Shown here piece after piece: positions 45,806 to 64,000 of a stretch of DNA of 64,000 bases (position 1 is the stretch's first letter; the number at the start of each line of letters is the position of its first letter). Location of the stretch: the NCBI GenBank assembly GCA_964576435.1, contig CAZNUP010000002.1, positions 247,182 to 311,181 of the forward strand. The letters run 5' to 3'. Made by a program: the position numbers and the translations under genes. The stretch is from an uncultured Gammaproteobacteria bacterium (GTDB lineage Bacteria > Patescibacteriota > Microgenomatia > JAMCZE01). The notes below the pieces were generated by a model. That model did no database searches. It saw nothing but the letters and a program-made list of their open reading frames with translations, and was not told the DNA's origin.

Positions 45806-45888
45806 GCAGATGTGGCGGAATTGGTATACGCGCACGCCTTAGGAGCGTGTTCCCAAAAGGAATGGAGGTTCAAGTCCTCTCATCTGCA
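45806..45888 (+). tRNA. tRNA-Leu (anticodon TAG), class II with a long variable arm
   Basis: Hand-folded: acceptor GCAGATG/CATCTGC, anticodon stem CACGC/GCGTG with loop CTTAGGA, variable arm TTCC-CAAAA-GGAA, T-loop TTCAAGT; CCA is not encoded. Confidence 0.8.
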
Positions 45889-50647: not shown

Positions 50648-51412
50648 ATGACTACTCCATCTATAACTAAAGGCCAAATAAAAATAATACATTCACTATA
50701 TAAATTCCGCTTCCTAACTATTAACCATCTTCAAAAACTACTCAACCACAAAGCTCAATATCGAATTAATACCTGGCTACAAGATTTGCAAGACAAAAAA
50801 TATATTTCCGTAATTAAAGACAAAGATCGAACACAACCATTTATATATTGTTTAGACACTAAGTCCGGTCACGTTCTCAAAGACAATGAAAAGTTTGAAA
50901 AAACTTTTCTAAGTAGGTTGTATAAAGAAAAGAGTAAAGAAAGGCCGTTTATTAATCACCACCTTTTTATTGCAACTGTTTATCTCTTTTTCCTGTCAAA
51001 GAAGGAAAAACAATCGGTGCTTAAATTTTTTACTAAACAGAACTTGAAGGGTTATCAATATTTCCCTGATCCTCTTCCCGATGCATATATTTCAGTCAAA
51101 AACGAAAAACAAACCAAGAGATATTTTTTAGATTTGTTTGATCCCAATATTCCACCTTTTGTTCTGAGAAATAGAATCAAATATTATTTGAAGTATTTCC
51201 AAGACGGTCAGTGGCAAGAAAACACGGAAAACAGCCCGTTTCCGTTAATTCTGTTTGTTTGTCCCAATGACCGATTAAAAAAACACATTTTCATGTATAG
51301 CAAATCGTTGCTTCAAAAGTCATTTAATAATGAAGTCAAACTTTTTCTCACCACAAAAGAAATTTTGGAAGCAAATAATCCGGATCTAACGGTTTGGGAG
51401 CAAGCAAAGTAG
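50648..51412 (+). CDS. replication-relaxation (Replic_Relax) family protein, putative relaxase
   Basis: N-terminal wHTH-like ITKGQIKIIHSLYKFRFLTINHLQKLL and an INHHLFIATVYLF His motif; sits beside the coupling protein. Confidence 0.5.
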   Translation: MTTPSITKGQIKIIHSLYKFRFLTINHLQKLLNHKAQYRINTWLQDLQDKKYISVIKDKDRTQPFIYCLDTKSGHVLKDNEKFEKTFLSRLYKEKSKERPFINHHLFIATVYLFFLSKKEKQSVLKFFTKQNLKGYQYFPDPLPDAYISVKNEKQTKRYFLDLFDPNIPPFVLRNRIKYYLKYFQDGQWQENTENSPFPLILFVCPNDRLKKHIFMYSKSLLQKSFNNEVKLFLTTKEILEANNPDLTVWEQAK

Positions 51413-51448
51413 TGTTCGCCGCCGGGCAGTGGCGGCAAAATTCCTAAT

Positions 51449-51748
51449 TCACTCGTGCAATTTCTTCACTTGTGATAGCGGTTTTGGTTCAAAAGAGGAA
51501 TCGCGCTCAACTCCTAATCCTAATGGCCCTTTGGCGCTACTAAGTTCTGAAAGCGAGAAATATCCAAACTCGCGCTCATGTCCCACTACAAAGCCGTAAA
51601 ACATATCTTTCCCATCAAATTCAATTGCATACCAAGTCCACCTTGAGGTAGGCGTAAAGAATTTGCACACTACTTGTGGATCTTCTATCCATTCGGTTGA
51701 TCCTATGGGAGGCAAGTTATCAGCCACAAATTTTGGTAATAGATTCAT
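51449..51748 (-). CDS. DUF2958 family protein (common on conjugative elements)
   Basis: KFFTPTSRWTWYAIEFDGKDMFYGFVVGHEREFGYFSLSELSSAKGPLGLGVERDSSFEPKPL matches my recollection of the DUF2958 consensus; the ATG after SD GGGGGTG is preferred over the track's GTG at 51757. Confidence 0.55.
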   Translation of the reverse strand: MNLLPKFVADNLPPIGSTEWIEDPQVVCKFFTPTSRWTWYAIEFDGKDMFYGFVVGHEREFGYFSLSELSSAKGPLGLGVERDSSFEPKPLSQVKKLHE

Positions 51749-51781
51749 TAAGTTCACCCCCTTTCTGTAAAAAATTGAATT

Positions 51782-51805
51782 TCGAAAGCATGCGCATGCT
51801 TTCGA
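51782..51805. promoter_or_regulatory. 24-bp perfect palindrome tcgaaagcatgcgcatgctttcga in a divergent intergenic region
   Basis: Read directly; flanked by direct repeats cccttgtc(a/t)(a/g)aaga at 51884 and 51904 and a TATAAT at 51958. Confidence 0.5.
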
Positions 51806-51937
51806 TAGAAGAAAGCAGAAAAGCAGGGTGAATTTTGCAAGGGCGAAGCTACGCGCAGTTTATTGAAGTGAAACGAAAACCCTTGTCAAAAGAGGGGCGC
51901 AGCCCTTGTCTGAAGACGGAAGGCAAGTAGTTGCTTC

Positions 51938-54409
51938 TTGAAACCTAAATCCCAGAGTATAATGCCAATTATGAGGTACGAGCAGCTAATCACCCTGGAG
52001 GAAAAAAATAAATGGCTCGAGCTTGAAGTGACGCTTGGGACTAATGACGCGCTTATTGGTAAGGATTTATCGAGATTGCGTAATTTCCTAAAAACCTTTA
52101 ATGACTTAGAAAAACGAAATTTGGAAGCGACCACTACTTTGAGTTTTAATCTAGAATCTCCTTTGTCATTGGAAGACAATCCAAAATTACTGAAATTATT
52201 GTTAATAAAAAAATTTATTGAACAGCACGGCCTCTCTGTTATTAGGGAAGCAAAATCAAACCAAGGCCTATCTGAAAAAACTGTTTTCTTGGAAGTTTCT
52301 GATGGACTATTTAATCGGAACGAGTATCCAGAGAAAATATATGTCTATGCAGCATATAGGCAGCGAGGAAGCCCTAATACATGGCTAAAGGTGATTAGTA
52401 ATTTGACGGCAGATGAAGTTGAACAGAAGTTGGAAAGTAAAACACGGGCTCTACAATCATATATTAATCATCATCTTCGGATTTCGAGAAAATTCAGATT
52501 TAAGGAAACTATTGGTAGTCTAGCCATTTTCGTTTTTTCTAAAGCTATTCCAGCGAAAGTTATGAAAGGAGAGACAAAAAACCTAGAAGTACAGAGAGCT
52601 ACATATACCATGGTTGTTTTTGACAAATCAGAAAATAAGTTAGGTGTTGTTACTGGTAGCAGGAAAGAAGTTCAGCTAATTCAAAGGTATATTCGTTATA
52701 GGCTTCTCCCCGACTCTATTGGCACCCCACGCTCTGAATTAGAAAAAGACCGCAAGGACATTCTTAAAAAGATTTTGGCTTCGAATGGAGATAGGTTCAT
52801 TTCCTTAAACAGCGTTTCATTCAAAACAACATTATTGCCGGGGCACCCTTCTGTTCGGTTAAAGGTCAACGGTAGTTCCTCAGTCGATGACGCCTTAAAT
52901 GCGCTACCTGATATGTGGAACAATCTTGGAATTGAGGCGCTGAGGAACGTAGATTACCAATTTCAAGGGAAAATTGTAAATGTTTATATATATGGAGATG
53001 AATGGAAAAGAATTTTCATCAATACTACAGCCAAAAGGAACTCACGTGAACTAGAAAATTATATCCTGGATGACCTCAACCAACGTCTTGGTACAAACGT
53101 AAAAGAGACAAGTTTTATTGTAGAACCTTTAACAGATGAGTACATTCTAGAAAAAATATTCATTGTTAAACGGGTTGCATCATTTCCACCAGTGCCGAAA
53201 CAAGTAGAGGGAATGATTATCAGACTTATTGGTCAAAAAATAATTAAAGAACCTACTAAAATTTCTAGAAGAAGATGTTCCATTTGTTATGGATTTTCTT
53301 GGAACGATTGGAATTGCCCCAATTGTGATAGAGAATCGATGATTGTCGTTGGCGAGGCTATAAATATTGAGTTAGTCGAGACAGTAGTCATTCGTAAACT
53401 TGCCAAATTACTTCCAAATGACTTGCCAAACTTTCAAGTTAAATTGATTCCTTATAAGCAAAGAAGAAATTATAAAAAAACAGTAATAAAAATTTATAAT
53501 CCAACCAAGAATTTATCCGTTTTTATCTTGTTAATTTCTGATAAGAAAGACTTGCCTTTCGTTGAAGATTTATTGCATGAAGGATTTGGTGTAATAGGGA
53601 TAATAGATCCAGAATTAGGGCAGAAGGCAGATTATTTGGAACGAAGTGGCTGCAATTTAGTTCCATTGCATTTAGTAGTAAATAGACTTGTCAATGGTTC
53701 TGATAGACCGACATTCTTAACACATGTCGAGGATCAAGAGCGAAAAGTTCTAGAAAGAATTTTTGCAAACTTGAGAATGTCCCTGAATAAACTCAACAAT
53801 AAACCGAACAATTATGATGAAGATATGTTTGAAATTGACATTACTAATTTGTTTCAAGCTATTGTTCCTGATGTCATTAGATTAGGTACCGAGCATAAAG
53901 GAAGATCAGTTCCGGATGGTTATTGTTGCTATGGCTATAAAGAATTAGCCCGAAAGAAACGGCTATTTGGGTGGGATGCAAAATACAGCATTCATTCAAA
54001 TTATAGATTGGGTTCTACTGACCTAGTTAAACAAAAAAGGTACCTGGCATGGTTGAGTGCAAAAAATAGTGAGCCGGCCAAGATTGGCAGCTTGGGGATA
54101 TATGCTTTTATTTCTAATTTTGATTCCGCCACGGGTTTTAATACCACCCTTACAAATTTAACAAAATGGGATAAATTTCCGAGACAGTGTCGATTGATTC
54201 TTGTGCAGGACAAATTACTTGTCGAAATTTGTGAATGGATATTAGCACATTGGCAACAAGTGATAGATAACAACTCATTGATTTCTGAGGTAACCTTTAA
54301 GTGGTTTAGAAGAAATACTGCTAAATCTTTTAATACATTGCACGTCAATGATTGGCACAAACTAGAAAAAAAGTTAAATCAAATTCCTCTTTTAGCCCGT
54401 CATAATTGA
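51938..54409 (+). CDS. large uncharacterised protein (823 aa) with a central zinc ribbon and a C-terminal PD-(D/E)xK-like nuclease motif
   Basis: CSICYGFSWNDWNCPNCD (CxxC-N10-CxxC); C-terminal ...RSVPDGYCCYGYKELARKKRLFGWDAKYS (PD ... DxK spacing, Mrr-like); no Walker A seen; the track starts at TTG 51938, an ATG lies at 51962. Confidence 0.5.
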   Translation: MKPKSQSIMPIMRYEQLITLEEKNKWLELEVTLGTNDALIGKDLSRLRNFLKTFNDLEKRNLEATTTLSFNLESPLSLEDNPKLLKLLLIKKFIEQHGLSVIREAKSNQGLSEKTVFLEVSDGLFNRNEYPEKIYVYAAYRQRGSPNTWLKVISNLTADEVEQKLESKTRALQSYINHHLRISRKFRFKETIGSLAIFVFSKAIPAKVMKGETKNLEVQRATYTMVVFDKSENKLGVVTGSRKEVQLIQRYIRYRLLPDSIGTPRSELEKDRKDILKKILASNGDRFISLNSVSFKTTLLPGHPSVRLKVNGSSSVDDALNALPDMWNNLGIEALRNVDYQFQGKIVNVYIYGDEWKRIFINTTAKRNSRELENYILDDLNQRLGTNVKETSFIVEPLTDEYILEKIFIVKRVASFPPVPKQVEGMIIRLIGQKIIKEPTKISRRRCSICYGFSWNDWNCPNCDRESMIVVGEAINIELVETVVIRKLAKLLPNDLPNFQVKLIPYKQRRNYKKTVIKIYNPTKNLSVFILLISDKKDLPFVEDLLHEGFGVIGIIDPELGQKADYLERSGCNLVPLHLVVNRLVNGSDRPTFLTHVEDQERKVLERIFANLRMSLNKLNNKPNNYDEDMFEIDITNLFQAIVPDVIRLGTEHKGRSVPDGYCCYGYKELARKKRLFGWDAKYSIHSNYRLGSTDLVKQKRYLAWLSAKNSEPAKIGSLGIYAFISNFDSATGFNTTLTNLTKWDKFPRQCRLILVQDKLLVEICEWILAHWQQVIDNNSLISEVTFKWFRRNTAKSFNTLHVNDWHKLEKKLNQIPLLARHN

Positions 54410-54509
54410 CTTTACTCCACCCACTGATATAATCTGATATAGATTTTAATAGTAAGTTTCTTTTTCTTCTGCCCTTCAGAAAAGAACTTCCAAGGAAGGG
54501 GGTGGAAGT

Positions 54510-54848
54510 ATGAAGAAATTAATTTTTCTACAATCGCTTGTTTTAACTGCACTCGTAGTTGCCTCTCCTGCATTTGCTGCCTCCGCTGATGTTTCCAAAA
54601 TCCAAACATTTATCCAAAGTATTATCCAAGTCTTGGTAACGATTGCCGCTCTTGTGGCGTCTGGATTTTTTGTTTTGGGAGGATTTGGCTATATCACAAG
54701 TTCCGGTAATCCTGAGTCACTGGATAAATCCAAGAAAACTATTCTCTACTCAGCAATCGGGTTAGTAGTAGTACTCGGGGCATTTGTGCTATCCAATATG
54801 GTTACTCAACTAGCTACTGGCGCCTTTGGAGCTGCAGCTGGCAATTAA
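54510..54848 (+). CDS. VirB2/TrbC-like conjugative pilin
   Basis: Signal peptide MKKLIFLQSLVLTALVVASPAFAAS followed by two hydrophobic helices; 112 aa; strong SD AAGGAAGGGGGTGGA. Confidence 0.6.
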   Translation: MKKLIFLQSLVLTALVVASPAFAASADVSKIQTFIQSIIQVLVTIAALVASGFFVLGGFGYITSSGNPESLDKSKKTILYSAIGLVVVLGAFVLSNMVTQLATGAFGAAAGN

Positions 54849-54849
54849 C

Positions 54850-56151
54850 ATGCCTATGAAAAGAGTATTAACCATTTTAGGATTAGTCCTAGGGTTCTTC
54901 GTATTTCCCATGCCTGCCTTTGCTGCAGGATCAGATTTGGCAAGTTATACCACTGACACTTTAAACATCATTACCATTATCGCCAGCGCCGCAGCAACAC
55001 TATTTCTCATCAAAGGTGGTTATCTCTACTTCACCTCCGCTGGTCAACCCCAAGCACTCGAAGAAGCAAAGAAAACAATCAGAAACAGCTTGATGGGACT
55101 GGTAGTAGTTCTTGCCGCAGGATTAATTGTCTCCGTCTTTAAAGGTGCTCTTCCTGCTTCCACAGGAGACACGAGCACTGCAGCCGTAGCAATTGCACCC
55201 ATTACTACAATTAAACCAACCGATGGTCTGTCCCAGGTTCTTATCGATGCAGTCTCAGCCTTCATTCAAAATATTGTTGAAAGCTCAACCAAACCAATCG
55301 TAGACGGGATTATTGGCTTTTTGACTACAACACCGAACTTATTGGGAAATTCTGTCATCACAAAGTTTTGGCTTGTCAGCTTGGGAATTGTGGACACACT
55401 TTTTGTTTTGGTGGTGGCACTTCTTGGACTGCATTTCATGAGCGCTAGTGCACTTGGCTTTGAAGAAGTAGAACTAAAACAACTCCTTCCAAGGATTGGC
55501 ACCGCTTTTCTGGGGGCCAATATTTCTTTGTTCCTGGCTGATTATGTAATCACTACTTGTAACGTGTTGGTGAAAACAATCTTAGATTCCACTGGAGGAC
55601 TAACTCACGCTTGGATTATGGATGCCATTAATCCAGTAACTTTTGCTACGGGTGGTACACCTCTAATTACTCTCATCTTTCTAGTTTTGTTCTTAATTCT
55701 CTCTGTTGTCCTGTTGCTTATGTACATTGCTAGATTAATTACCCTTTCTTTAGGAGCAGTGTTGTCACCCTTCATTTTTCTTCTCTGGACCCTGCCGAAG
55801 TTTTCTGACTTTGCTGAAATTGCCATTAAGTCATATGTTGTAACTGTATTTATGGTTTTTGTGCACGTAGTCATTATTCAACTAGCAGCAGCATTCTTAA
55901 CAATTCCTGGAAATTCAAATAATTCCCTTTTGGCAATTGCTATTGCCATTGGACTTTTTCTCACACTTTTGAAAGTTCCCGGGACCATGATGCAAATGGT
56001 CTTCTATACCTCACGAAATGGCACATTTAAAAAGATGGGTAGTCAAATTGTTAATGTGATGACCAGCGACAAATCTGGTGCAGCCAGTTCGGCTAGTTCT
56101 GCAGCCAGAGAAGCTGTTGTCAAACTGCCCAGAAAGGCGGTAGCGATATGA
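54850..56151 (+). CDS. VirB6/TrbL-like T4SS polytopic membrane protein with an N-terminal pilin-like domain paralogous to the upstream VirB2-like gene
   Basis: N-terminal ~105 aa (PAFAAGS...IKGGYLYFTSAGQPQALEEAKKTI...GLVVVLAAGLIVS) parallels PAFAASA...LGGFGYITSSGNPESLDKSKKTI...GLVVVLGAFVLS of the preceding ORF; at least 6 TM helices follow. Confidence 0.6.
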   Translation: MPMKRVLTILGLVLGFFVFPMPAFAAGSDLASYTTDTLNIITIIASAAATLFLIKGGYLYFTSAGQPQALEEAKKTIRNSLMGLVVVLAAGLIVSVFKGALPASTGDTSTAAVAIAPITTIKPTDGLSQVLIDAVSAFIQNIVESSTKPIVDGIIGFLTTTPNLLGNSVITKFWLVSLGIVDTLFVLVVALLGLHFMSASALGFEEVELKQLLPRIGTAFLGANISLFLADYVITTCNVLVKTILDSTGGLTHAWIMDAINPVTFATGGTPLITLIFLVLFLILSVVLLLMYIARLITLSLGAVLSPFIFLLWTLPKFSDFAEIAIKSYVVTVFMVFVHVVIIQLAAAFLTIPGNSNNSLLAIAIAIGLFLTLLKVPGTMMQMVFYTSRNGTFKKMGSQIVNVMTSDKSGAASSASSAAREAVVKLPRKAVAI

Positions 56152-56654
56152 GAAGCACAGTCATTCCAGCACAAATTACCACTGTTGAAGATAAAATCGC
56201 AGGCAATTTAAACTTGACCCAAATTGTGCTCTTTCTAGGTGCAATATTTGCAACTACATTTCTCTACGTTATCTTACCGCCAACCCACCACTTAACCCCT
56301 CTAAAGACCATCGTAGGGCTCATAACCATCACCGGATTTATGGCCCTGGCAGTTCGAATCAAAGGAAAGATCGTTCTTGACTGGCTACTTGTTCTTTCTA
56401 GGTACAACTTGCGACCAAAATATTACGTGTTTAATAAAAACGACGCCTATTTACGAACCCTATATTTACCAGAGCTACCCGCCAAAGCAAAGCTGTTTGC
56501 TAAAAAGGTGAGCCCACAAAAAGCTACGCAACCTGAGACAACCAATATCGTCATTAAGGACCTAGTAAAGTTGGATGCTTTAGTACAAGACAAAAACCTG
56601 AGTTTTAGTTTTAAAACTAACAGAAAAGGAGGACTCGATGTGGCTTTTGAATAA
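56148..56654 (+). CDS. PrgI/VirB3-like small T4SS membrane protein
   Basis: 168 aa with two TM helices, directly upstream of the VirB4 genes; 4-nt overlap with the upstream gene. Confidence 0.4.
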   Translation: MRSTVIPAQITTVEDKIAGNLNLTQIVLFLGAIFATTFLYVILPPTHHLTPLKTIVGLITITGFMALAVRIKGKIVLDWLLVLSRYNLRPKYYVFNKNDAYLRTLYLPELPAKAKLFAKKVSPQKATQPETTNIVIKDLVKLDALVQDKNLSFSFKTNRKGGLDVAFE

Positions 56655-57240
56655 ATCAAATCAAAAAATGAGTTCCAGAAAACAAATCAACATTAAAGAA
56701 GTGAAAGACGGAATGTTAATTTTGCCTAACAACCAATACCGAGTGGCAATTGAAACTTCCTCAATTAACTTTGAGCTTAAAAGCGAACAGGAGCAGGACG
56801 TTTTGATTGATAGTTTTCAAAATTTCCTCAACTCCCTTCCATGTCAGCTGCAAATCCTTATTCGCGTGAGAGAAATTGACATCGATTCTTACTTGGAGGA
56901 AATATCAAAAGGAAAACAGCTGCAAGAAGAGCTGCGTAACTATTGCGATTTCATTAAAACTGTTGTCTCGGGAAACAAAATCCTTTCCAGACGTTTTTAT
57001 GTCATTATTCCCTATCACAGCGCAAGTGGGAGTAAGGATTTTGAATTTATCAAAGAACAGATTCGTTTAAATTGTGACCTGGTCACTAAAGGCTTGGAAA
57101 AATTGGGAATGAAAGCAAAACAGTTGGACAGTCTTGAAATTCTCGATCTGTTCTACAGTTTCTATAATCCAGGCCAGACTAAGACGCAAGAACTTAAAGG
57201 GCAAACAATTCAGACACTTTTACAAAATAACTATGCCTAA
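56638..57240 (+). CDS. VirB4 N-terminal-domain-like protein (separate 200-aa ORF)
   Basis: Length and position equivalent to the N-domain of ~800-aa VirB4 proteins; the stop overlaps the next start (ATGCCTAA). Confidence 0.4.
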   Translation: MWLLNKSNQKMSSRKQINIKEVKDGMLILPNNQYRVAIETSSINFELKSEQEQDVLIDSFQNFLNSLPCQLQILIRVREIDIDSYLEEISKGKQLQEELRNYCDFIKTVVSGNKILSRRFYVIIPYHSASGSKDFEFIKEQIRLNCDLVTKGLEKLGMKAKQLDSLEILDLFYSFYNPGQTKTQELKGQTIQTLLQNNYA

Positions 57241-59047
57241 CTTAAATCTAAATTTAATCAATCGACTAAAGCAATTTGAGTCCAAGTCGCTAGGGCTTAA
57301 AGGCAAGAACAGCCAAAAAGAGGCAACGAAGAAAGCCATGAGCTTTAATTTTGGTGAACAAGACCAAGTAGATCTTCTATCCTACTCGGGTCTGATGGAA
57401 GAAGCCTCGTATCTTCAAGTGGGTGACAAATTTGTACGCACATTATTTATTTCCGGCTACCCCTATGTTGCTTCCACTGGTTGGCTCAACATGCTCATCA
57501 ATTTTAATCACAACGTGGATATTTCATATCACATTGAACAAGTTGACCCTCAACTTGCCTTGCCAAAATTAAACAGAAAAATAACTGAGCTCGAGTCCAC
57601 AAAGAGATCAATGCTTAAGGACGGAAAAGTAATAGGCTCGGAGATTACAGATCCCTTAGACTCAGCTATTGAACTTAAAAACAAAATTCAACGCGGTCAA
57701 GAGAAGTTGTTTCAAGTCTCGATATATATAAACATTAGTGCTGATAATCTCAGTGATTTAAATAAACTCACCACAACTTTGGAAACAGTAATGTCGACTA
57801 GGTTGTTTTATATTAAAACTGCCCAATTCCAACAATTGGAAGGGCTGCAATCGACTCTTCCCAGAGGAGAGAACCTTCTTAATCAAAGACGAAATTTAGA
57901 CAGTTCCTCGGCCGCATTAACATTTCCTTTCGTGTCTTCTGAACTAGTTCAAGAGTCAGGTATCTTGTATGGGATAAACAAATCAAACAATTCGCTCGTT
58001 ATCATCGACAGATTCAGTTTAAACAATGCCAACAGTATAATTTTCGCTCAGTCTGGATCCGGAAAAAGCTACACAGCAAAGGTTGAAATACTCCGGCAAC
58101 TTATGCAGGGAACTAGAGTCATTGTGATTGATCCAGAGAGGGAATATCAACAGTTGGCTAAATCAGTCAACGGTAGTTACATCCAACTGTCTGCCAATTC
58201 AAAAGAAAAAATTAATCCCTTCGACTTTTCACTTACAAACTACCATCGGGAAAATATCCTGGCAGAAAATATCCAAAACCTAACTGAAATAATTTCTCTT
58301 ATGGTTGGTTCCCTTTCCGATGAAGAACGAGCAATAGTAGATAAAGCCTTAATTCAAACATACAAAAAGTTTGGTTTTTCAATCAACAGTAAAAGCACCG
58401 AGCTTAAAGGAAGAAAGTTCCCACTCCTCAAAGATTTCTATAAAGAATTGAAAAACCTACACCAAACTGATTTATGTAATCGGCTAGATAAATTCGTCAA
58501 CGGCTCCCTTGCGTCAGTATTCGATTCAGAAACAAATATTCAGCTTGATAACCGCTTAGTAGTTTTTGACATCAAGGACCTTGGAGAATCACTGAGACAA
58601 ATAATGATGCTTGTTGTAGCTAACTTTGTGAATTCCGAAGTTAAATCGAATCCACAAAAGAGAATTTTGGTGATTGATGAGGGTTGGCTACTTCTGCAAT
58701 ACGAGGAAAGTGCCAGATTCATTTCTGGACTAGTCAGGCGAGCCAGAAAATATTACTTGGGAGTAACAATCATCTCTCAGCAAGCTAATGACTTCTTAAA
58801 TCAAGAATATGGTCGCGCCATTGCTTCGCAAAGCTCACTTAGAATTTTAATGAAACAAGACACCACAACAATTCAAAAGGTAGCTCAAGAATTTCATCTG
58901 AGTGAATACGAACAACATTTTCTGTTAACTTGTGACCGAGGCGAAGCACTGATTATTGCTGACCAAAATCATGTTGCTCTCAAAGTTGTCGCCTCAGAAA
59001 AAGAGCACCCGCTTCTGACAACCGATCCTAAGGAGATATATCTCTAA
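57233..59047 (+). CDS. VirB4/TrbE-family T4SS ATPase (C-terminal ATPase part)
   Basis: Walker A AQSGSGKSYTAK; Walker B RILVIDEGWLLL; the track starts at 57134, but the ATG at 57233 (MPNLNL) right after the upstream stop is preferred. Confidence 0.75.
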   Translation: MPNLNLNLINRLKQFESKSLGLKGKNSQKEATKKAMSFNFGEQDQVDLLSYSGLMEEASYLQVGDKFVRTLFISGYPYVASTGWLNMLINFNHNVDISYHIEQVDPQLALPKLNRKITELESTKRSMLKDGKVIGSEITDPLDSAIELKNKIQRGQEKLFQVSIYINISADNLSDLNKLTTTLETVMSTRLFYIKTAQFQQLEGLQSTLPRGENLLNQRRNLDSSSAALTFPFVSSELVQESGILYGINKSNNSLVIIDRFSLNNANSIIFAQSGSGKSYTAKVEILRQLMQGTRVIVIDPEREYQQLAKSVNGSYIQLSANSKEKINPFDFSLTNYHRENILAENIQNLTEIISLMVGSLSDEERAIVDKALIQTYKKFGFSINSKSTELKGRKFPLLKDFYKELKNLHQTDLCNRLDKFVNGSLASVFDSETNIQLDNRLVVFDIKDLGESLRQIMMLVVANFVNSEVKSNPQKRILVIDEGWLLLQYEESARFISGLVRRARKYYLGVTIISQQANDFLNQEYGRAIASQSSLRILMKQDTTTIQKVAQEFHLSEYEQHFLLTCDRGEALIIADQNHVALKVVASEKEHPLLTTDPKEIYL

Positions 59048-59668
59048 ATGAGTCTCATAACTCCAAGTACAATTCTCACCGTCTGGTCATTTAGAAAAGA
59101 ATTAATCTACGTAGCCATAGCATTTCTAATTGTTCTCTCACTCCCAATTGTGGCCGTTATTATTCTCACAAATACCGGATTAAATATTGTCTCCGACAAA
59201 TTAGCCACTGTTAATGTCCAAACTCAGGCTATTCAAATTAGAAACCCAGCGGATGGAGAAATAATCAAAGAAATTCATGCCCAAATTGTCTGGCCAGTCA
59301 AAGGAGTGATTACCCTAAACTTTGGCGAACCTGATTTGCCGTTTCAACCCCTCCATACAGGAATTGATATTGCGAACCCTGAAGGGAAAATTGGTGATCC
59401 AATAACTCCTTTTATGAATGGAAAGGTCATCTACGCTGGGGAAACTGCTATTGGCTATGGCAAACACATCATTATTGATCACGGAGATAACATCAGCTCA
59501 GTTTATGGACACTTAGATAAGGTTAATGTGTTTACAAGTCAACAGGTAACCACCAATGATGTAATTGGTCTAGAAGGACAAACAGGTTGGGCTACAGGAC
59601 CACATTTACATTTTGAAATAAGAGTTTTTGGAATCCCGGTGAATCCGAGAACATTTTTATTTAATTAA
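59048..59668 (+). CDS. M23 family peptidoglycan endopeptidase (conjugation-associated cell-wall hydrolase)
   Basis: HTGIDIA...GYGKHIIIDHGDNISSVYGHL...GPHLHFE (the HxxxD and HxH zinc ligands of M23) plus an N-terminal TM anchor. Confidence 0.85.
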   Translation: MSLITPSTILTVWSFRKELIYVAIAFLIVLSLPIVAVIILTNTGLNIVSDKLATVNVQTQAIQIRNPADGEIIKEIHAQIVWPVKGVITLNFGEPDLPFQPLHTGIDIANPEGKIGDPITPFMNGKVIYAGETAIGYGKHIIIDHGDNISSVYGHLDKVNVFTSQQVTTNDVIGLEGQTGWATGPHLHFEIRVFGIPVNPRTFLFN

Positions 59669-59670
59669 TC

Positions 59671-60081
59671 TTGCAATTCCTATTAGGCTTTTCTACAATC
59701 TGTAGTATGGAAACTAAGCAACTGAGTGAACTTGAGCAGGAAGTGATGAACATCGTTTGGGAACTGAAAAACTGTTCGGTACGAGATGTGCTTGAAGAAT
59801 TAACTAAGTCTAAAAAACTAGCATATACCACCGTAGCAACCATCCTTCAGAGACTTAATGATAAAGGAGTCGTCGTTCGTAAAGGATCTGGGCAAACTTT
59901 TTCCTACTCTCCTAAAATTTCTAGAGAGGTTTACAGCAAAAATGTGGCGCAAACTTTTATCCAGAAGTTTTTCAGGTCCTTTGGTGACACAGCTGTAGCA
60001 TCATTCGCAGAAACCCTAGATAAACTCCCTACGGAGAAAAAGAAACATTTATTAAAATTATTATCTGATCATGGCAATTAA
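59671..60081 (+). CDS. BlaI/MecI/CopY family transcriptional repressor
   Basis: LSELEQEVMNIVWELKNCSVRDVLEEL...YTTVATILQRLNDKGVVVRK winged-helix signature; no C-terminal Cys cluster. Confidence 0.8.
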   Translation: MQFLLGFSTICSMETKQLSELEQEVMNIVWELKNCSVRDVLEELTKSKKLAYTTVATILQRLNDKGVVVRKGSGQTFSYSPKISREVYSKNVAQTFIQKFFRSFGDTAVASFAETLDKLPTEKKKHLLKLLSDHGN

Positions 60082-61021
60082 AAATTTACTTTTTCCTTTC
60101 AGTTTGATTGGTGCTTTCGGTTTGACTACGCTTTTAATTTTTCAGAAATTTCTCCAGCTTTCCATTGGACATACCGTCTATTATTGCCAAAATGTAATTA
60201 AATCCTTATCGCTTCAGTTTCCCCAACCTCTCGGTATTGTTCTTATTTCACTTCTTTTATTAACGATTGTTTTTCCATTACTTAAGTTTTTGTTTAATCT
60301 TCACAAACTTTCCCGACTTAAAAATAATCTAACTCCTAGCCTGGAAATGAGCAAAAAATTATTTCGCCTTGTGACAGCTCTAGATTTACAAGGAAAAGTA
60401 ATTCAGGTTAAAAGTAGAAAGTTGTTTGCCTATTGTGTGGGGATGAAAAGTCCAAAAATATATGTTTCGTCAGCGCTTATATCATCAGTAGACTCTAGGG
60501 AATTAGAAGCAATATTACTTCACGAGAAAAGTCATTTAGATAATCATGACCCATTTGTTTTAGTATTGATGTCCATTGTCCACTCTTTATTTCCCTATTT
60601 GCCAATACTCAGTGATTTTGTTCGAAACTTTCGTATCGAAAGAGAAATTCAGGCCGATCAAGCAGCCGTTTATCAGCAAGGTGAGATGAAACCACTTCTT
60701 TCAGCAATGAGGAAACTTCTTTTAATTGAAGACTCTGACAGGTTTGCATTTTCCTTAGGAATGGGAGAGCTGGACACTCTTGAAGTTCGAATTAATATGC
60801 TACTTAACAAAAAATTGATCCACAAGAAGTTCCATGCTCTGAATATTATTGCAACTACTGTAACGATTCTGGTTGTTGGGTTTATGGCAATTGCTCCTGT
60901 TCATGCAATAGAAAATCATGAGAACGGAAAAGATGTTATGACAGTCTGGTGTGACGGAAATCAAACCATTAATTCAAGTCAGCCATCAGAAAATTCCTCC
61001 CATCCATATAGCACTAAATAA
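60071..61021 (+). CDS. M56 (BlaR1-like) membrane metalloprotease/signal transducer without a penicillin-binding sensor domain
   Basis: HEKSHLDNHD (HExxH) in a polytopic membrane protein; overlaps the BlaI-family gene by 11 nt. Confidence 0.75.
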   Translation: MAIKNLLFPFSLIGAFGLTTLLIFQKFLQLSIGHTVYYCQNVIKSLSLQFPQPLGIVLISLLLLTIVFPLLKFLFNLHKLSRLKNNLTPSLEMSKKLFRLVTALDLQGKVIQVKSRKLFAYCVGMKSPKIYVSSALISSVDSRELEAILLHEKSHLDNHDPFVLVLMSIVHSLFPYLPILSDFVRNFRIEREIQADQAAVYQQGEMKPLLSAMRKLLLIEDSDRFAFSLGMGELDTLEVRINMLLNKKLIHKKFHALNIIATTVTILVVGFMAIAPVHAIENHENGKDVMTVWCDGNQTINSSQPSENSSHPYSTK

Positions 61022-61072
61022 CTGTTAAATTCCTCTTGACAAGTTAGAACCTTACTACTACACTGCGTAGTA

Positions 61073-61804
61073 ATGAAGTTTGATAACCCTATTATTTCAA
61101 TCCTGGTGGCAGTAGTAATTTTTGTTCTTGGCGCCGGGATTGGTGGAATGTATACTAAGATTCAATACCTTGAAGGGAAGGGAGCAGCAGGATCCGCAGC
61201 CCTTGCTGTTGCCCCTTTGGGAGGTCAGCCTGCTCCAAATGCTGCTCCTCCCGCCCCAACAAAAGTTGATATCAAGGTGACAAGCGATGATCCATATTTG
61301 GGAAATGCCAATGCAAAACTAACTGTAGTTGAGTTTGGTGACTTTCAGTGTCCGTTCTGTGGAAAATTCCACTCTGAAGTTTTAACACAGCTTAAGAAGG
61401 ACTATATCGATACTGGCAAGGTTAAGTTCGTTTTTAAAAATCTTGCCTTTTTAGGTAAAGAGTCAACTGACACTGCAAATGCGGCAATGTGTGCTAAGGA
61501 ACAAAATAAATATTGGGAATACCACGACAAGATTTACACTAGCCAAAACGGGGAAAACCAAGGTACTTTTTCCATTCCTAATCTAAAGAAATTTGCGGTG
61601 GACCTTGGATTAGATCCAACCCAATTTGATAGTTGCTTAGATAGTCAAAAATATAATGCCCAAGTGACTGCTGATAATACTGAGGCCAATAAGAATGGTT
61701 TCACCAGCACTCCAAGCACTGCAGTAGGAGACACTCCGGTAATTGGTGCCCAACCTTACAATGCTTTTAAGACAATCATTGACCAAAAATTATCGGCGCT
61801 CTAG
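61073..61804 (+). CDS. DsbA-like thiol:disulfide oxidoreductase, membrane-anchored
   Basis: FGDFQCPFCGKFH thioredoxin-fold CxxC motif and an N-terminal TM helix. Confidence 0.75.
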   Translation: MKFDNPIISILVAVVIFVLGAGIGGMYTKIQYLEGKGAAGSAALAVAPLGGQPAPNAAPPAPTKVDIKVTSDDPYLGNANAKLTVVEFGDFQCPFCGKFHSEVLTQLKKDYIDTGKVKFVFKNLAFLGKESTDTANAAMCAKEQNKYWEYHDKIYTSQNGENQGTFSIPNLKKFAVDLGLDPTQFDSCLDSQKYNAQVTADNTEANKNGFTSTPSTAVGDTPVIGAQPYNAFKTIIDQKLSAL

Positions 61805-61814
61805 TCATTTTTCT

Positions 61815-62312
61815 ATGAAAAAGGTTTTAGTTCCAGCGCTGATAATTACGATCCTCTACTTCTTGGCAACGACATATTTTATGAATTCACGTCTAGCCCT
61901 CGACACATTAACTGGAAACTACCCAGTAAGTTATAAACTCGATCTCACACTGGCACTAATTCTAGGAATGTGGTCGGCCATGGGGGCATTTGGACTAATG
62001 ATCCTTTTAATAACAGCAGGACTTACAGGACTTAACCTATCAATACTGGGTCAACGTATTGGGGAACTTTCAAAAACAGGGAACATGCATTTTGTTGTGG
62101 GTGGCAGCTCTGTTCTTGGACTCGCAACTAGCGGTTGTGCTGCCTGTGGACTGCCGATTCTGGCATTATTTGGAATTTCGGGAAGCTTGTTATATTTACC
62201 CTTTCGAGGATTGGAACTGTCGTTCCTGTCGATCGTGTTACTTACTATTTCCCTAGTTGCTCTTGTTAAAACAAGGACAGCAACTGAGTGCAGAATTAAT
62301 TCAAATGTCTGA
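61815..62312 (+). CDS. small polytopic membrane protein with an intramembrane CAAC (CxxC) motif; candidate redox partner (VKOR/DsbB-like role) of the DsbA-like protein
   Basis: MKKVLVPALIITILYFLATT...LATSGCAACGLPILALFG; the track starts upstream at 61743 in the same frame, the ATG at 61815 is preferred. Confidence 0.4.
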   Translation: MKKVLVPALIITILYFLATTYFMNSRLALDTLTGNYPVSYKLDLTLALILGMWSAMGAFGLMILLITAGLTGLNLSILGQRIGELSKTGNMHFVVGGSSVLGLATSGCAACGLPILALFGISGSLLYLPFRGLELSFLSIVLLTISLVALVKTRTATECRINSNV

Positions 62313-62682
62313 CAAAACTAAAAATTTTCTTTTGTCTGGTCTATTAATCGGCGCAATTGTTTTAATAACATCCGTGTTTTTTAAAGTGATTGCTCCCTCC
62401 GGACAAGTCATGGCCAAAAGTAAAACGTTTAATCTTGTGCTTCAAAATGAACAATATATTCCCAACAAAATTCAAGTTAATTTAAATGATAATGTGACTC
62501 TTAAAATTGACAATAAAGATAATATTCTTCACGGGTTACACATTACCCAATTTAATATTTCAGAAGATATTCCCCCTCTTTCCCAAAAGACAGTTCAATT
62601 TGTTGCAACTACTAATGGGCCAATGACAGCGGGGTGCGCTAATGATCAACATAAAGAAAAGTTAGATATTGAAGTTATATGA
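62305..62682 (+). CDS. membrane-anchored cupredoxin-like protein
   Basis: HGLH...C...H spacing after an N-terminal TM anchor; the start ATG overlaps the upstream stop (ATGTCTGA). Confidence 0.4.
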   Translation: MSDKTKNFLLSGLLIGAIVLITSVFFKVIAPSGQVMAKSKTFNLVLQNEQYIPNKIQVNLNDNVTLKIDNKDNILHGLHITQFNISEDIPPLSQKTVQFVATTNGPMTAGCANDQHKEKLDIEVI

Positions 62683-63128
62683 CGTTAACAACGGAAACGA
62701 AAATAATCGGAGCACTAATTCTAATGACAGTCGTCATTGTTATTGGTGGAGTGTTTCTTTTTTCTAAACAAAGTAACAAAACCGTCCTAAAGGATCAGGT
62801 TGTGGCAGAGAACGGTCTACACTGGCATCCAAAATTAAGCATTTTTATAAAAGGAAAAAAACAGGAAATTCCTGATAATATCGGATTGGGTGCAGTTCAT
62901 GGAAAAATTCACACTCACACTGAAGACGCAAAAGATGGTGTGATTCACATGGAAATGTCTGGGCTAGTTCTAAAAGAAGATACCAAACTTGTAAAGTTTT
63001 TCCTAGCTTGGGGAAAGGATTTTAATTTTGGGGGCCAGCCTAAAATGACTGTTAATGGCAAAGAAAATATGGATCTTAATAAATACTTAATGAAAAATGG
63101 TGATAATATAGAAATTCGATATGAATAA
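62679..63128 (+). CDS. membrane-anchored His-rich putative metal-binding protein
   Basis: HWHP, HGKIHTHTED and VIHMEM motifs; 4-nt overlap with the upstream gene. Confidence 0.4.
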   Translation: MTLTTETKIIGALILMTVVIVIGGVFLFSKQSNKTVLKDQVVAENGLHWHPKLSIFIKGKKQEIPDNIGLGAVHGKIHTHTEDAKDGVIHMEMSGLVLKEDTKLVKFFLAWGKDFNFGGQPKMTVNGKENMDLNKYLMKNGDNIEIRYE

Positions 63129-64000
63129 TTGGAAAAGATTTTTAACTAGCAGAAATGTTATTTTAGCAGCCTTAGCAATTATTGGAGTCCTTCTGCTGTT
63201 TCAGTTTAAGACGCAACAAACAGGACTTACAAATTCCCCAGCGCAGCTTTCAACAACAGGTGAAAATCAGTCAGCCCTCGAAGCGATGGAGGCAATTCCA
63301 GAAAGCGGAGTCCCACAAGCAACCGAGAAACAAGGACTACAAGAACTGAAATTCAGTCTTGAAAACGGAGTCAAAGTTTTTAAACTTACTGCAGAGCCAA
63401 TTCGTTGGCCTATTCTTAAAGACACTACCGTCACTGCTTGGGCATATAACGGAATGGTCCCGGGGCCATTAATTCGGGTTAGTGATGGTGACAAAGTCAA
63501 GTTACTTGTAAAGAATAATCTTCCAGAAGCAACAACGATTCATTGGCATGGCATTCTTGTTCCAAACAACATGGATGGGATTCCAGACGAAACGCAAGAA
63601 CCTATTAAGCCAGGCGAAACGTTTACTTATGAATTTACTGCCAAACCGGCGGGGACATTCTGGTATCATTCCCACTTTAATAGCGATAAGCAAATCTCAG
63701 TTGGTCTCTCAGGAGCATTTATTATTGAGCCTCCTGGTGGTTTAGCATCAAAACCAGATATCGATAAAGTTCTAATGCTTAATGAATGGCGAGTGATTGG
63801 TGGCCAAACATATGCAGCGATGCCAGCAACGGGAATGGACGGAAACTTCTTTACAATCAATGGAAAAGCATTTCCGCAGACCGAAACAATAGAGGCAAAG
63901 GTGGGGCAAAAGGTGCGCCTTCGTTTTATTGGCAGTGGGCAAATGATTCATCCGATGCATCTACATGGGTTCCCATTTAAAGTTGTGGCAACTGATGGAA
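63121..64000 (+). CDS. multicopper oxidase (CueO/CopA-like), 3' end beyond the window
   Basis: Hand translation MNNWKRFLTSRN...TIHWHGILVPN...FWYHSHF...HPMHLHGFPF (type 2/3 copper His motifs); absent from the ORF track because no stop lies in the window. Confidence 0.8.
   Translation, partial: MNNWKRFLTSRNVILAALAIIGVLLLFQFKTQQTGLTNSPAQLSTTGENQSALEAMEAIPESGVPQATEKQGLQELKFSLENGVKVFKLTAEPIRWPILKDTTVTAWAYNGMVPGPLIRVSDGDKVKLLVKNNLPEATTIHWHGILVPNNMDGIPDETQEPIKPGETFTYEFTAKPAGTFWYHSHFNSDKQISVGLSGAFIIEPPGGLASKPDIDKVLMLNEWRVIGGQTYAAMPATGMDGNFFTINGKAFPQTETIEAKVGQKVRLRFIGSGQMIHPMHLHGFPFKVVATDG

What the first reader, a model, noticed from the sequence alone, without database searches (positions are those of the whole stretch)
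59671..64000. Cargo module: BlaI/CopY-family repressor plus sensor-less M56 (BlaR1-like) protease, with a DsbA-like protein, a CxxC membrane protein, a cupredoxin-like protein, a His-rich protein and a multicopper oxidase
The BlaI/MecI/CopY family includes the copper-responsive repressor CopY, and the partner here is an M56 HExxH protease (HEKSHLDNHD) lacking the beta-lactam sensor domain. Downstream genes are periplasm/exoplasm-facing redox and copper proteins, ending in a multicopper oxidase (HWHG, HSH, HPMHLHG). Together they look like a mobile copper/oxidative-stress or oxidative-folding island whose inducing signal is unknown. Several genes are translationally coupled by ATGxxTGA or ATGAATAA overlaps.
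Basis: partly seen in the sequence, partly recalled or inferred. Interest (0 to 1): 0.55.

Follow-up and report, generated by a model that had tools for sequence, protein, structure and literature searches.

The report
Protease-controlled copper and disulfide defence island
A mobile element of an uncultured ultra-small (CPR) bacterium carries copper-detoxifying and disulfide-bond genes, apparently switched on when a membrane protease destroys their repressor; the only studied relative is a cyanobacterial copper switch that does not control copper defence.

Summary
All seven genes are present with the stated motifs and start/stop overlaps. The cluster continues about 7.8 kb past the window: rest of a two-domain multicopper oxidase, YtkA, DUF305, a copper chaperone, a Cu P-type ATPase.

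New here:
- Operator. A 17-bp palindrome, TACTACA-N3-TGTAGTA, occurs twice in 64 kb. Each copy overlaps the -10 box of a promoter ending at a start codon (repressor gene; DsbA-like gene).
- Conservation. The operator recurs at both positions in most of 27 related CPR loci. In some it also precedes csoR or oxidase genes.
- Synteny. Repressor, protease and DsbA are collinear in 23 of 23 informative loci.
- Repressor. No CopY cysteine motif. It keeps the Phe of the BlaI/MecI cleavage site.
- Protease. No beta-lactam sensor in any of 73 relatives. Their short outer tails are Cys-enriched (5.6% vs 1.0%).
- Affinity. It scores higher against a cyanobacterial PetP-like protein than against BlaR1.

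Best reading: a PetR/PetP-type proteolytic switch wired to copper and thiol defence, on a conjugative element. The signal is inferred, not shown: copper or copper-induced thiol damage. It is a new variant of a known kind, of moderate interest.

The parts
59671..59699 (+). Promoter P1: TTGCAA, 17 nt, TACAAT. The -10 box ends 7 nt before ATG 59707, which implies a leaderless mRNA.
   Evidence: Consensus scan (L001 8494-8522 = window +51177); sequence. The same arrangement occurs in L006, L009 and most of L010-L036. Function is inferred.
59691..59707 (.). Operator O1, TTCTACAATCTGTAGTA. It overlaps the -10 box, and its last base is the A of the repressor's ATG.
   Evidence: CTAC-N5-GTAG occurs only twice in the window, against 0.26 expected. 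A site lies 10-19 nt before the repressor start in 24 of 27 close loci.
59707..60081 (+). BlaI/PetR-type winged-helix repressor, 124 aa
   Evidence: PF03965 2e-29. MecI 4.7e-12 and BlaI 5.7e-12 in the PDB. Invariant S-F-A aligned to the N-F cleavage site. Only 0-2 Cys and no CopY motif.
60071..61021 (+). Sensor-domain-less M56 membrane zinc protease, 316 aa (HEKSH). Its outer loop carries HTVYYCQ and its 40-aa outer tail is AIENHENGKDVMTVWC...
   Evidence: PF05569 47.7 bits against a cut-off of 31. AF2 model pLDDT 74.9. Best fold match is S. aureus BlaR1 8exq, E 1.2e-6. Alignment A1.
61036..61064 (+). Promoter P2: TTGACA, 17 nt, TACACT. It ends 8 nt before ATG 61073.
   Evidence: L001 9859-9887; 10 of 12 matches; sequence.
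61056..61072 (.). Operator O2, TACTACACTGCGTAGTA, a perfect palindrome arm pair
   Evidence: A site lies upstream of the DsbA-like gene in 19 close loci.
61073..61804 (+). Membrane-anchored DsbA/BdbD-like thiol-disulfide oxidoreductase (CPFC)
   Evidence: Thioredoxin_4 7e-38. Best solved relative is B. subtilis BdbD at 8.5e-24; ScsC-type copper-resistance proteins score about 1e-10.
61815..62312 (+). Four-helix membrane protein with an invariant GCAxCGLP in helix 3 and an invariant C-terminal Cys. Uncharacterised family.
   Evidence: Alignment A3. 1490 clusters at 50% identity. No Pfam match. Only a 16-residue motif matches MerC.
62305..62682 (+). Membrane-anchored cupredoxin-like protein (His, Cys and His candidates: HGLH ... 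GCANDQH). The start may instead be TTG 62263.
   Evidence: Cupredoxin_1 1.1e-10; nitrosocyanin model 1.1e-5, below its cut-off.
62679..63128 (+). Membrane-anchored protein with an invariant His cluster (H48-W-H50, H78-T-H80, H90-x-E92). Uncharacterised family. Translationally coupled to the oxidase.
   Evidence: 376 relatives, all unnamed and from CPR. Alignment A2. AF2 pLDDT 87. No PDB fold match below E 0.05. It directly precedes an oxidase gene in the window, L007, L010, L022 and L029.
63121..64000 (+). 5' part of a 354-aa two-domain multicopper oxidase. It ends at the equivalent of position 64185.
   Evidence: Cu-oxidase_3 8e-41. Full length from L001. 3G5W 1.9e-58. HSH in domain 1 and HCH in domain 2.
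59048..59668 (+). M23 peptidase. Last gene of the type IV secretion module; it marks the left edge of the cargo.
   Evidence: PF01551 5e-28; same position in L003, L004 and L006.

Best explanation
This is a PetR/PetP-type proteolytic de-repression switch that governs an extracytoplasmic copper-detoxification and disulfide-repair module. It is carried as cargo of an integrative conjugative element in a CPR (Microgenomates-like) bacterium.

Proposed steps:
1. The BlaI-family repressor binds two 17-bp palindromes (TACTACA-N3-TGTAGTA) that overlap the -10 boxes of P1 and P2, and so blocks RNA polymerase. P1 drives the repressor and protease genes. P2 drives the operon from the DsbA-like gene through the oxidase to the second M23 gene.
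2. The M56 membrane protease has no penicillin-binding sensor. On the outer face it exposes a conserved loop (HTVYYCQ) and a short His/Met/Cys tail.
3. Binding of copper to these thiol and imidazole ligands, or copper-driven damage to them, activates the cytoplasmic zinc-protease domain.
4. The protease cuts the repressor at the conserved Ser-Phe site in its dimerisation region.
5. De-repression yields a BdbD-like oxidoreductase, a CxxC membrane protein, a cupredoxin, a His-cluster protein that probably serves the oxidase, and a Cu(I)-oxidising two-domain oxidase. Further downstream it yields YtkA, DUF305, a Cys-rich peptide, HMA-DsbD_2-cupredoxin, CopZ and CopA.

Shown: gene identities, the operator and its placement, conserved synteny, absence of a sensor domain and of the CopY motif.
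Inferred: repression, cleavage, and the nature of the signal.
For: Operator:
- It occurs twice in 64 kb against 0.26 expected, both times on a -10 box abutting a start codon.
- The same palindrome lies before the repressor gene in 24 of 27 close loci and before the DsbA-like gene in 19 (also L006, L007, L009).
- It also lies directly before csoR in L007, L015, L022 and L026, and before an oxidase gene in L016. This ties the regulon to copper.

Synteny:
- The repressor gene is directly upstream of the protease gene in 64 of 73 loci.
- The DsbA-like gene is next in 23 of 23 close loci that have downstream DNA.
- DsbD_2-cupredoxin occurs in 20 of 27 close loci, csoR in 12 of 27, and a CopA match of at least 300 aa in 14 of 27.
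- On the element itself no other regulator is seen in the cargo.

Repressor: invariant S-F-A aligned to the BlaI/MecI N-F site, and no CopY Cys motif.

Protease:
- The fold matches BlaR1's membrane-plus-protease part.
- All 73 relatives are 239-374 aa.
- Tails hold 5.6% Cys against 1.0% elsewhere, and 67 of 71 carry a Cys.
- The window protein scores 55.8 bits (BLASTP) against a PetP-like protein in a true petJ-petR-petP locus, and 19.6 bits (phmmer) against BlaR1. The two programs are not strictly comparable.

Precedent: PetP degrades PetR only with copper, lacks the sensor domain, overlaps petR, and PetR binds GACA-N3-TGTC (paper 10.1101/2020.07.31.226407).
Against: - There are no expression, binding or cleavage data for any member.
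- The window's own protease has a 9-residue deletion. It removes two of the three tail cysteines that are at least 90% conserved in the family.
- The outer loop and tail are modelled with pLDDT below 50, so no metal site can be seen.
- The Met residues proposed as ligands in PetP have no conserved counterpart here.
- The most constant output is a DsbA-like gene, not a copper exporter. A paralogous system in WWE3 (L040) controls thioredoxin-like, AhpC/TSA/Redoxin-family and CcdA-like genes without obvious copper genes. The primary signal could therefore be thiol redox state.
- In several genomes CopA already has its own CsoR.
Confidence: 0.6

Rival explanations
1. Same switch, but the protease senses the extracytoplasmic thiol-disulfide state and not a metal. 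Its loop and tail cysteines would be substrates of the co-regulated DsbA-like enzyme. When they are reduced or mis-oxidised the protease fires, giving homeostatic control of oxidative folding. Copper genes ride along because copper is one source of such stress.
For: The DsbA-like gene is the invariant first target, in 23 of 23 loci. Tails are Cys-enriched across the whole family. Operator-preceded genes elsewhere include thioredoxin-like proteins, CcdA and Cys-rich secreted or membrane proteins. The WWE3 paralogue L040 has thioredoxin-like, AhpC/TSA/Redoxin-family and CcdA genes.
Against: The operator also sits before csoR and oxidase genes. The only studied relative responds to copper. The tail also keeps His and Met, which are typical copper ligands. 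The window protein has lost two tail Cys yet is kept in four samples.
Confidence: 0.2
2. The protease is an HtpX-like quality-control enzyme that responds to general envelope or membrane-protein stress, and cleaves the repressor as a generic stress output.
For: Pfam M48 3.3e-11 and weak HtpX model matches. Ste24 and HtpX appear among the fold matches.
Against: The pairing with a BlaI-type gene is tight and overlapping in 64 of 73 loci. The outputs are specific and narrow. The loop and tail motifs are conserved.
Confidence: 0.1
3. CopY-type regulation: the repressor itself binds Cu(I) and leaves the DNA, and the protease is accessory.
For: The top NCBIfam match is CopY_TcrY, 6.2e-16. The half-sites TACA/TGTA are those of the cop box (abstract of PMC7253601).
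Against: The match covers only the N-terminal 85 residues and scores 58.8 against a cut-off of 121.95. There is no CxCx4CxC motif: 0-2 Cys, none invariant.
Confidence: 0.04
4. A beta-lactam or cell-wall antibiotic sensing system of the BlaR1/MecR1 kind.
For: Family membership of both proteins.
Against: There is no penicillin-binding sensor domain in the window protein or in any of 73 relatives. The blaR1 model scores 30.9 against a cut-off of 400. No beta-lactamase or PBP gene is in the cluster.
Confidence: 0.02

Closest known systems
PetR/PetP of Synechocystis sp. PCC 6803 (copper-dependent cytochrome c6 / plastocyanin switch)
   Same: A BlaI-family factor without CopY cysteines. An overlapping downstream gene for an M48/M56 membrane protease that lacks the beta-lactam sensor. 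The conserved Phe of the cleavage site. An inverted-repeat operator with a 3-nt centre (GACA-N3-TGTC against TACA-N3-TGTA). The window protease scores higher against a PetP-like protein than against BlaR1.
   Different: - Targets are copper-resistance and disulfide genes, not petE/petJ. A 2023 review notes that PetRP has no copper-homeostasis output.
- The system here is autoregulated by an operator on its own promoter, whereas petRP mRNA did not change with copper.
- The model has three helices, and the outer tail is Cys/His/Met-rich, instead of the proposed Met pair.
- It occurs in CPR bacteria and on a conjugative element.
BlaI/BlaR1 and MecI/MecR1 of Staphylococcus aureus
   Same: Repressor fold and cleavage region. 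Protease membrane and zinc domain (Foldseek E 1.2e-6). TACA/TGTA half-sites. Logic of proteolytic de-repression.
   Different: No acylatable sensor domain, no beta-lactamase or PBP2a target, and a 3-nt rather than 2-nt operator centre.
CopY/CopR cop-box repressors of Firmicutes
   Same: Same repressor family, same half-sites, copper-related targets.
   Different: CopY senses Cu(I) directly through CxCx4CxC and has no protease partner. That motif is absent here.
BdbD/BdbC of Bacillus, and the ScsABCD suppressor-of-copper-sensitivity system
   Same: A DsbA-like oxidoreductase encoded next to a Cys-bearing membrane protein, and a link between disulfide enzymes and copper tolerance (PMC8900818).
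   Different: The membrane partner is neither DsbB/BdbC, VKOR nor ScsB by any profile used. The DsbA-like protein is nearer to BdbD (8.5e-24) than to ScsC (about 1e-10).
Two-domain multicopper oxidases (Nitrosomonas 3G5W, metagenomic mgLAC 2ZWN, SLAC) and CueO
   Same: The copper-ligand motifs and the two-domain length. The presumed Cu(I) oxidase role in copper islands.
   Different: The type 1 Cys lies in domain 2 (HCH) and domain 1 has HSH, unlike 3G5W. The protein is membrane-anchored by an N-terminal helix.

Membership tests
BlaI/MecI/CopY repressor family (Pfam PF03965) | Winged-helix N-terminal domain plus helical dimerisation domain that matches the family model above its cut-off | tested here: met
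   102.7 bits against a cut-off of 22.6, model positions 1-114 of 115. MecI and BlaI structures at 5e-12.
BlaI/MecI/CopY repressor family (Pfam PF03965) | Dyad operator with TACA/TGTA half-sites at the regulated promoters | tested here: met
   TACA-N3-TGTA on both -10 boxes, conserved in related loci. The centre is 3 nt, against 2 nt in the cop box.
CopY/TcrY copper repressors (TIGR02698) | C-terminal CxCx4CxC metal-binding motif, and a score above the equivalog cut-off | tested here: not met
   58.8 bits against a cut-off of 121.95, N-terminal part only. 0-2 Cys, none in the C-terminal region.
BlaR1/MecR1 beta-lactam sensor-transducers | M56 zinc-protease domain with HExxH between membrane helices | tested here: met
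   PF05569 47.7 bits against 31. H151, E152 and H155 invariant. Fold match to 8exq and 8exr.
BlaR1/MecR1 beta-lactam sensor-transducers | C-terminal extracellular penicillin-binding (class D beta-lactamase-like) sensor domain | tested here: not met
   316 aa with a tail of about 40 aa. blaR1_generic scores 30.9 against 400. All 73 relatives are 239-374 aa.
PetR/PetP-type copper-responsive proteolytic switch | BlaI-type factor without CopY cysteines, plus an overlapping gene for a sensor-less M48/M56 membrane protease | tested here: met
   Description of PetRP. A PetP-like protein was retrieved by the family's catalytic motif.
PetR/PetP-type copper-responsive proteolytic switch | Copper-dependent, protease-dependent degradation of the repressor | not testable with these tools
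   Needs immunoblots or a reporter in a reconstituted system.
PetR/PetP-type copper-responsive proteolytic switch | Regulon of petE/petJ, and a conserved Met pair in the outer loop | tested here: not met
   The targets are DsbA-like, oxidase and csoR genes. The loop carries Y37, C39 and Q40, with no conserved Met.
DsbA/BdbD thiol-disulfide oxidoreductases | Thioredoxin fold with a CxxC active site and a helical insertion, exported or membrane-anchored | tested here: met
   Thioredoxin_4 130.9 bits, DSBA 65.3 bits, CPFC, an N-terminal helix. BdbD 8.5e-24.
DsbB/VKOR/CcdA, or the MerC membrane partner families | Sequence or profile match of the CxxC membrane protein to one of these families | tested here: not met
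   No Pfam or NCBIfam match even at E 10. hhalign against verified MerC aligns 16 residues, probability 8.7%.
Two-domain multicopper oxidases | Two cupredoxin domains of about 300-350 aa with the four His-rich copper motifs | tested here: met
   354 aa. HWHG, WYHSH, HPMHLHG and HCHIPHH...M present. 3G5W 1.9e-58 over residues 87-351.
Integrative conjugative element | Recombinase, relaxase, coupling protein and mating-pore genes in one block, with defined ends | tested here: inconclusive
   The genes found are a serine recombinase next to tRNA-Leu, a coupling protein, Replic_Relax, pilin-like, PrgI-like and VirB4-like ATPase genes. The same block plus cargo occurs in a second genome. The right end and the att repeats were not found.

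The most novel reading that the evidence does not exclude
Sensor-less BlaR1-like proteases form a widespread class of minimal extracytoplasmic thiol/copper sensors. They read the signal through a few Cys, His and Met residues in one loop and a short tail. In CPR bacteria they control a definable regulon of oxidative-folding and copper-defence genes. That regulon includes two large uncharacterised families (the CxxC membrane protein and the His-cluster protein), which act as a copper-handling pair for the oxidase. This would be the first reconstructed signal-to-regulon circuit in CPR bacteria. It would also give a function to the unexplained BlaR homologues of heterotrophs.
Probability: 0.4. 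Interest if true: 0.7.

Novelty: new variant of a known kind. Interest (0 to 1): 0.55.

Why it matters
PetR/PetP showed that a BlaR-like protease can respond to copper, but its output is a photosynthetic electron-carrier swap. A 2023 review states that it gives no copper-homeostasis response and that BlaR homologues in heterotrophs are unexplained.

Here the same kind of switch is wired to copper-detoxifying and disulfide-forming genes. It has a clear, conserved operator that allows a regulon to be read off genomes of uncultured CPR bacteria, a group for which such regulatory circuits are hard to establish experimentally. It also shows this module moving on a conjugative element.

It points to a testable minimal sensor (a loop and a tail of about 40 residues). 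It also flags two sizeable protein families of unknown function as probable copper or thiol handlers.

Tried and rejected
- MerC homology of the CxxC membrane protein. I recalled the MerC motif GCAACFP and verified the MerC sequence on plasmids at 100%. The profile comparison aligns only 16 residues, probability 8.7%, so homology is rejected and only a motif resemblance remains.
- Pfam and NCBIfam for the CxxC protein, the His-cluster protein and distant CxxC relatives, up to E 10: nothing.
- The idea that the 165-aa protein plus the cupredoxin is a split DsbD_2-cupredoxin: BLASTP shows no similarity for the membrane part.
- A third operator before the HMA-DsbD_2 gene (L001 15045-15061, 2 mismatches). 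It is absent at the same place in L006, so it is treated as weak.
- Operator-like sites at window 13484 and 27105 (2 mismatches) lie inside ORFs and fit chance expectation.
- Search for att repeats of the tRNA-Leu region in the 7.8 kb beyond the window: none.
- Cluster look-up for organism names: none on record.
- Literature searches for a prior description in CPR bacteria or of copper-linked sensor-less BlaR systems other than PetRP: none found.

Full report
**1. The observation**

The region 59671-64000 holds seven co-directional genes. Profile searches give the following.
- A Penicillinase_R repressor (2e-29).
- A 316-aa Peptidase_M56/M48 protein with HEKSH and no further domain.
- A Thioredoxin_4/DSBA protein with CPFC.
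- A 165-aa membrane protein with GCAACG and no family match.
- A Cupredoxin_1 protein (1.1e-10).
- A 149-aa protein with no family match and six His.
- The first 293 residues of a multicopper oxidase with HWHG, WYHSH and HPMHLHG.

The reported start/stop overlaps are all present. The repressor ORF formally opens at TTG 59671. Homologue alignment and the promoter place the start at ATG 59707.

**2. What lies beyond the window**

A public 29-kb contig (L001) is 100% identical to window 51178-64000 and runs on. From it:
- The oxidase is only 354 aa. Its best solved relative is the two-domain oxidase 3G5W (1.9e-58).
- It carries HSH in domain 1 and HCH in domain 2, so the type 1 Cys is in domain 2.
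- Next come YtkA, DUF305, an uncalled 57-aa ORF with 13 Cys, and a second M23 peptidase.
- A terminator-like hairpin follows directly after that M23 gene.
- The last unit holds HMA-DsbD_2-cupredoxin (608 aa), a 70-aa HMA protein, a 924-aa Cu P-type ATPase and DUF5676.

The copper reading is therefore much stronger than the window alone shows.

**3. Surroundings**

Upstream lie the following:
- tRNA-Leu (45806-45889);
- a large serine recombinase (45870-47411, minus strand);
- a coupling protein;
- a Replic_Relax protein;
- pilin-like, PrgI-like and VirB4-like ATPase genes;
- an M23 peptidase.

The same secretion block followed by the same cargo occurs in another genome, where the protease is 63% identical (L006/L010). 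More distant relatives of the regulator pair and its first targets sit in ordinary chromosomal settings (L007, L009). One genome has both an element-borne copy and a chromosomal copy (L010 and L035). 'Cargo of a conjugative element' is thus well supported. The right end and the attachment repeats were not found.

**4. Operator and promoters**

- CTAC-N5-GTAG occurs exactly twice in the 64-kb window, against 0.26 expected.
- O1 is TTCTACAATCTGTAGTA at 59691-59707. O2 is TACTACACTGCGTAGTA at 61056-61072.
- Each site overlaps the -10 hexamer of a good sigma-70-like promoter: TTGCAA-17-TACAAT and TTGACA-17-TACACT.
- Each site ends at the start codon, which implies leaderless transcripts and repression by promoter occlusion.
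- The palindrome is conserved at the same two places in L006, L007 and L009.
- Among 27 close loci from a genome scan, it lies before the repressor gene in 24 and before the DsbA-like gene in 19.
- It also lies directly before csoR in L007, L015, L022 and L026, and before an oxidase gene in L016.
- In other lineages it lies before Cys-rich secreted or membrane proteins, thioredoxin-like proteins and CcdA.
- Overall there are 89 strict sites in 992 kb.
- The half-sites are those of BlaI and CopY (TACA/TGTA; abstract of PMC7253601). The 3-nt centre is that of the extended PetR site GACA-N3-TGTC.

**5. Conserved neighbourhood**

| Feature | Count |
|---|---|
| Repressor gene directly upstream of the protease gene | 64 of 73 loci |
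| DsbA-like gene next after the protease (close loci with >1.2 kb downstream) | 23 of 23 |
| DsbD_2-cupredoxin in the locus | 20 of 27 |
| csoR in the locus | 12 of 27 |
| CopA match of at least 300 aa | 14 of 27 |
| Oxidase in the locus | 4 of 27 |

The His-cluster gene directly precedes an oxidase gene in the window, L007, L010, L022 and L029. Elsewhere it neighbours the CxxC membrane gene.

**6. The repressor**

It aligns to MecI and BlaI over its whole length (about 5e-12). The family keeps an invariant S-F-A where BlaI and MecI have the N-F cleavage site. It has 0-2 Cys and nothing like the CopY CxCx4CxC motif. The CopY model scores below its cut-off and matches only the N-terminal part. 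Metal sensing by the repressor is therefore unlikely.

**7. The protease**

- All 30 database relatives come from CPR/Patescibacteria lineages and are 210-338 aa, the shortest on a 1-kb contig.
- All 73 relatives from genomes are 239-374 aa. None has a sensor domain.
- Invariant residues are H151, E152 and H155, together with Y37, C39 and Q40 in an N-terminal segment. The tail is conserved as PVHAIExH..DVMMVC-x5-C-xxWC.
- The AF2 model (pLDDT 74.9) has helix 2-31, a low-confidence hairpin at 33-49, helix 52-86, the protease domain at 95-244, helix 256-274 and then the tail.
- In this model the hairpin and the tail are on the same outer side of the membrane.
- The best fold match is the membrane-plus-protease part of S. 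aureus BlaR1 (E 1.2e-6).
- Across 71 relatives the tail holds 5.6% Cys against 1.0% elsewhere, and 67 have at least one Cys.
- The scan also reached a genuine cyanobacterial petJ-petR-petP locus (L080). The window protein scores 55.8 bits against that PetP-like protein (BLASTP) and 19.6 bits against BlaR1 (phmmer). The two programs differ, so this comparison is only indicative.
- The window protein has a 9-residue deletion that removes two of the three tail cysteines. It is nevertheless found unchanged in four sequencing runs.

**8. The other cargo proteins**

- The DsbA-like protein is closest to B. subtilis BdbD (8.5e-24). ScsC-type copper-resistance proteins follow at about 1e-10.
- The CxxC membrane protein belongs to an unnamed family of at least 1490 clusters. 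Invariant features are GCAxCGLP in helix 3 and one Cys after helix 4.
- That protein has no Pfam match. Its resemblance to MerC is limited to a 16-residue motif.
- The His-cluster protein has 376 unnamed relatives, with H48, W49, H50, H78, T79, H80, H90 and E92 invariant. It gives a confident model and has no PDB fold match.
- From its coupling to oxidase genes I infer a copper-delivery or accessory role.

**9. Mechanism and rivals**

The anatomy fits proteolytic de-repression as shown for PetR/PetP, where degradation of PetR needs PetP and copper. I take copper, or copper-inflicted thiol damage, as the most likely trigger for three reasons:
- The operator reaches csoR and oxidase genes.
- The tail offers His, Met and Cys ligands.
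- The element carries no other regulator for its Cu-ATPase.

The main rival is a pure thiol-redox sensor. It is supported by the invariance of the DsbA-like target and by a WWE3 paralogue that controls thioredoxin-like, AhpC/TSA/Redoxin-family and CcdA-like genes. Direct CopY-type sensing and beta-lactam sensing are disfavoured by failed defining features.

**10. Novelty**

No paper in the library describes this system in CPR bacteria. A 2023 review says that PetRP has no copper-homeostasis output and that BlaR homologues in heterotrophs are unexplained. I rate this a new variant of a known kind. The switch is known. Four things appear new: the wiring to copper and disulfide defence, the operator and regulon, the Cys-rich mini-sensor, and carriage on a conjugative element. 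None of the functional steps has been shown experimentally.

Noticed in passing
L001:13923-14096 (would be about 65100-65273 in window numbering, beyond the window end): An uncalled 57-aa ORF with 13 Cys (MKCAKCSMDCKGWKCAICGEE...CSGCDEAEALCSCK). It is metallothionein-like, lies between the DUF305 gene and the second M23 peptidase gene, and has no Pfam match.
   Followed up: partly
window 45806-47411: A large serine recombinase gene (minus strand) whose 3' end overlaps the 3' end of tRNA-Leu(TAG). This is the likely left junction of the conjugative element. No matching repeat was found in the 7.8 kb available beyond the window.
   Followed up: partly
L010 and L035 (both on contig CAZXMM010000001.1); L030 and L040 (both on CP006914.1, WWE3 RAAC2): Single genomes carry two paralogous repressor-protease systems with different outputs. 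One has DsbA, DsbD_2-cupredoxin and CopA. The other has thioredoxin-like, CxxC-membrane, DUF3105, AhpC/TSA/Redoxin-family and CcdA genes.
   Followed up: partly
L037, L040, L043, L044, L045, L048, L059 (e.g. L040:12866-13321): An operator copy (TACTACACATTGTAGTAT) precedes a conserved membrane protein of about 150 aa with the motif MISCCAHYLTN. It has no Pfam match and is another unnamed Cys-bearing membrane family in this regulon.
   Followed up: partly
L080:6678-8492: A cyanobacterial MAG locus with cytochrome c6 (minus strand), a PetR-like gene and a PetP-like gene. The PetP-like protein ends in ...IPLHC, so a Cys just after the last helix is shared with most CPR relatives.
   Followed up: partly
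L009:11135-11833 and L013:2098-2826: A secreted protein of about 232-242 aa with CC, CCCKC and other Cys clusters and no Pfam match. It is preceded by an operator in L013.
   Followed up: no
L001:20340-20465 and L006:20404-20529: A conserved 41-aa Met/Gly-rich membrane peptide (MMGYYGGMMSGWG...) directly after the DUF5676 gene that follows CopA.
   Followed up: no
record titles of L010, L012, L015, L016 and many others: Many loci with plainly CPR-like gene content are titled 'uncultured Gammaproteobacteria bacterium'. These are probably default labels of the assemblies and should not be used for taxonomy.
   Followed up: no
window 63121-64000 and L001:11944-13008: The oxidase's best sequence relative (3G5W) has its type 1 Cys in domain 1 (WYHCH). 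The window protein has WYHSH there and HCH in domain 2, so the blue-copper site has apparently switched domains between close relatives.
   Followed up: partly
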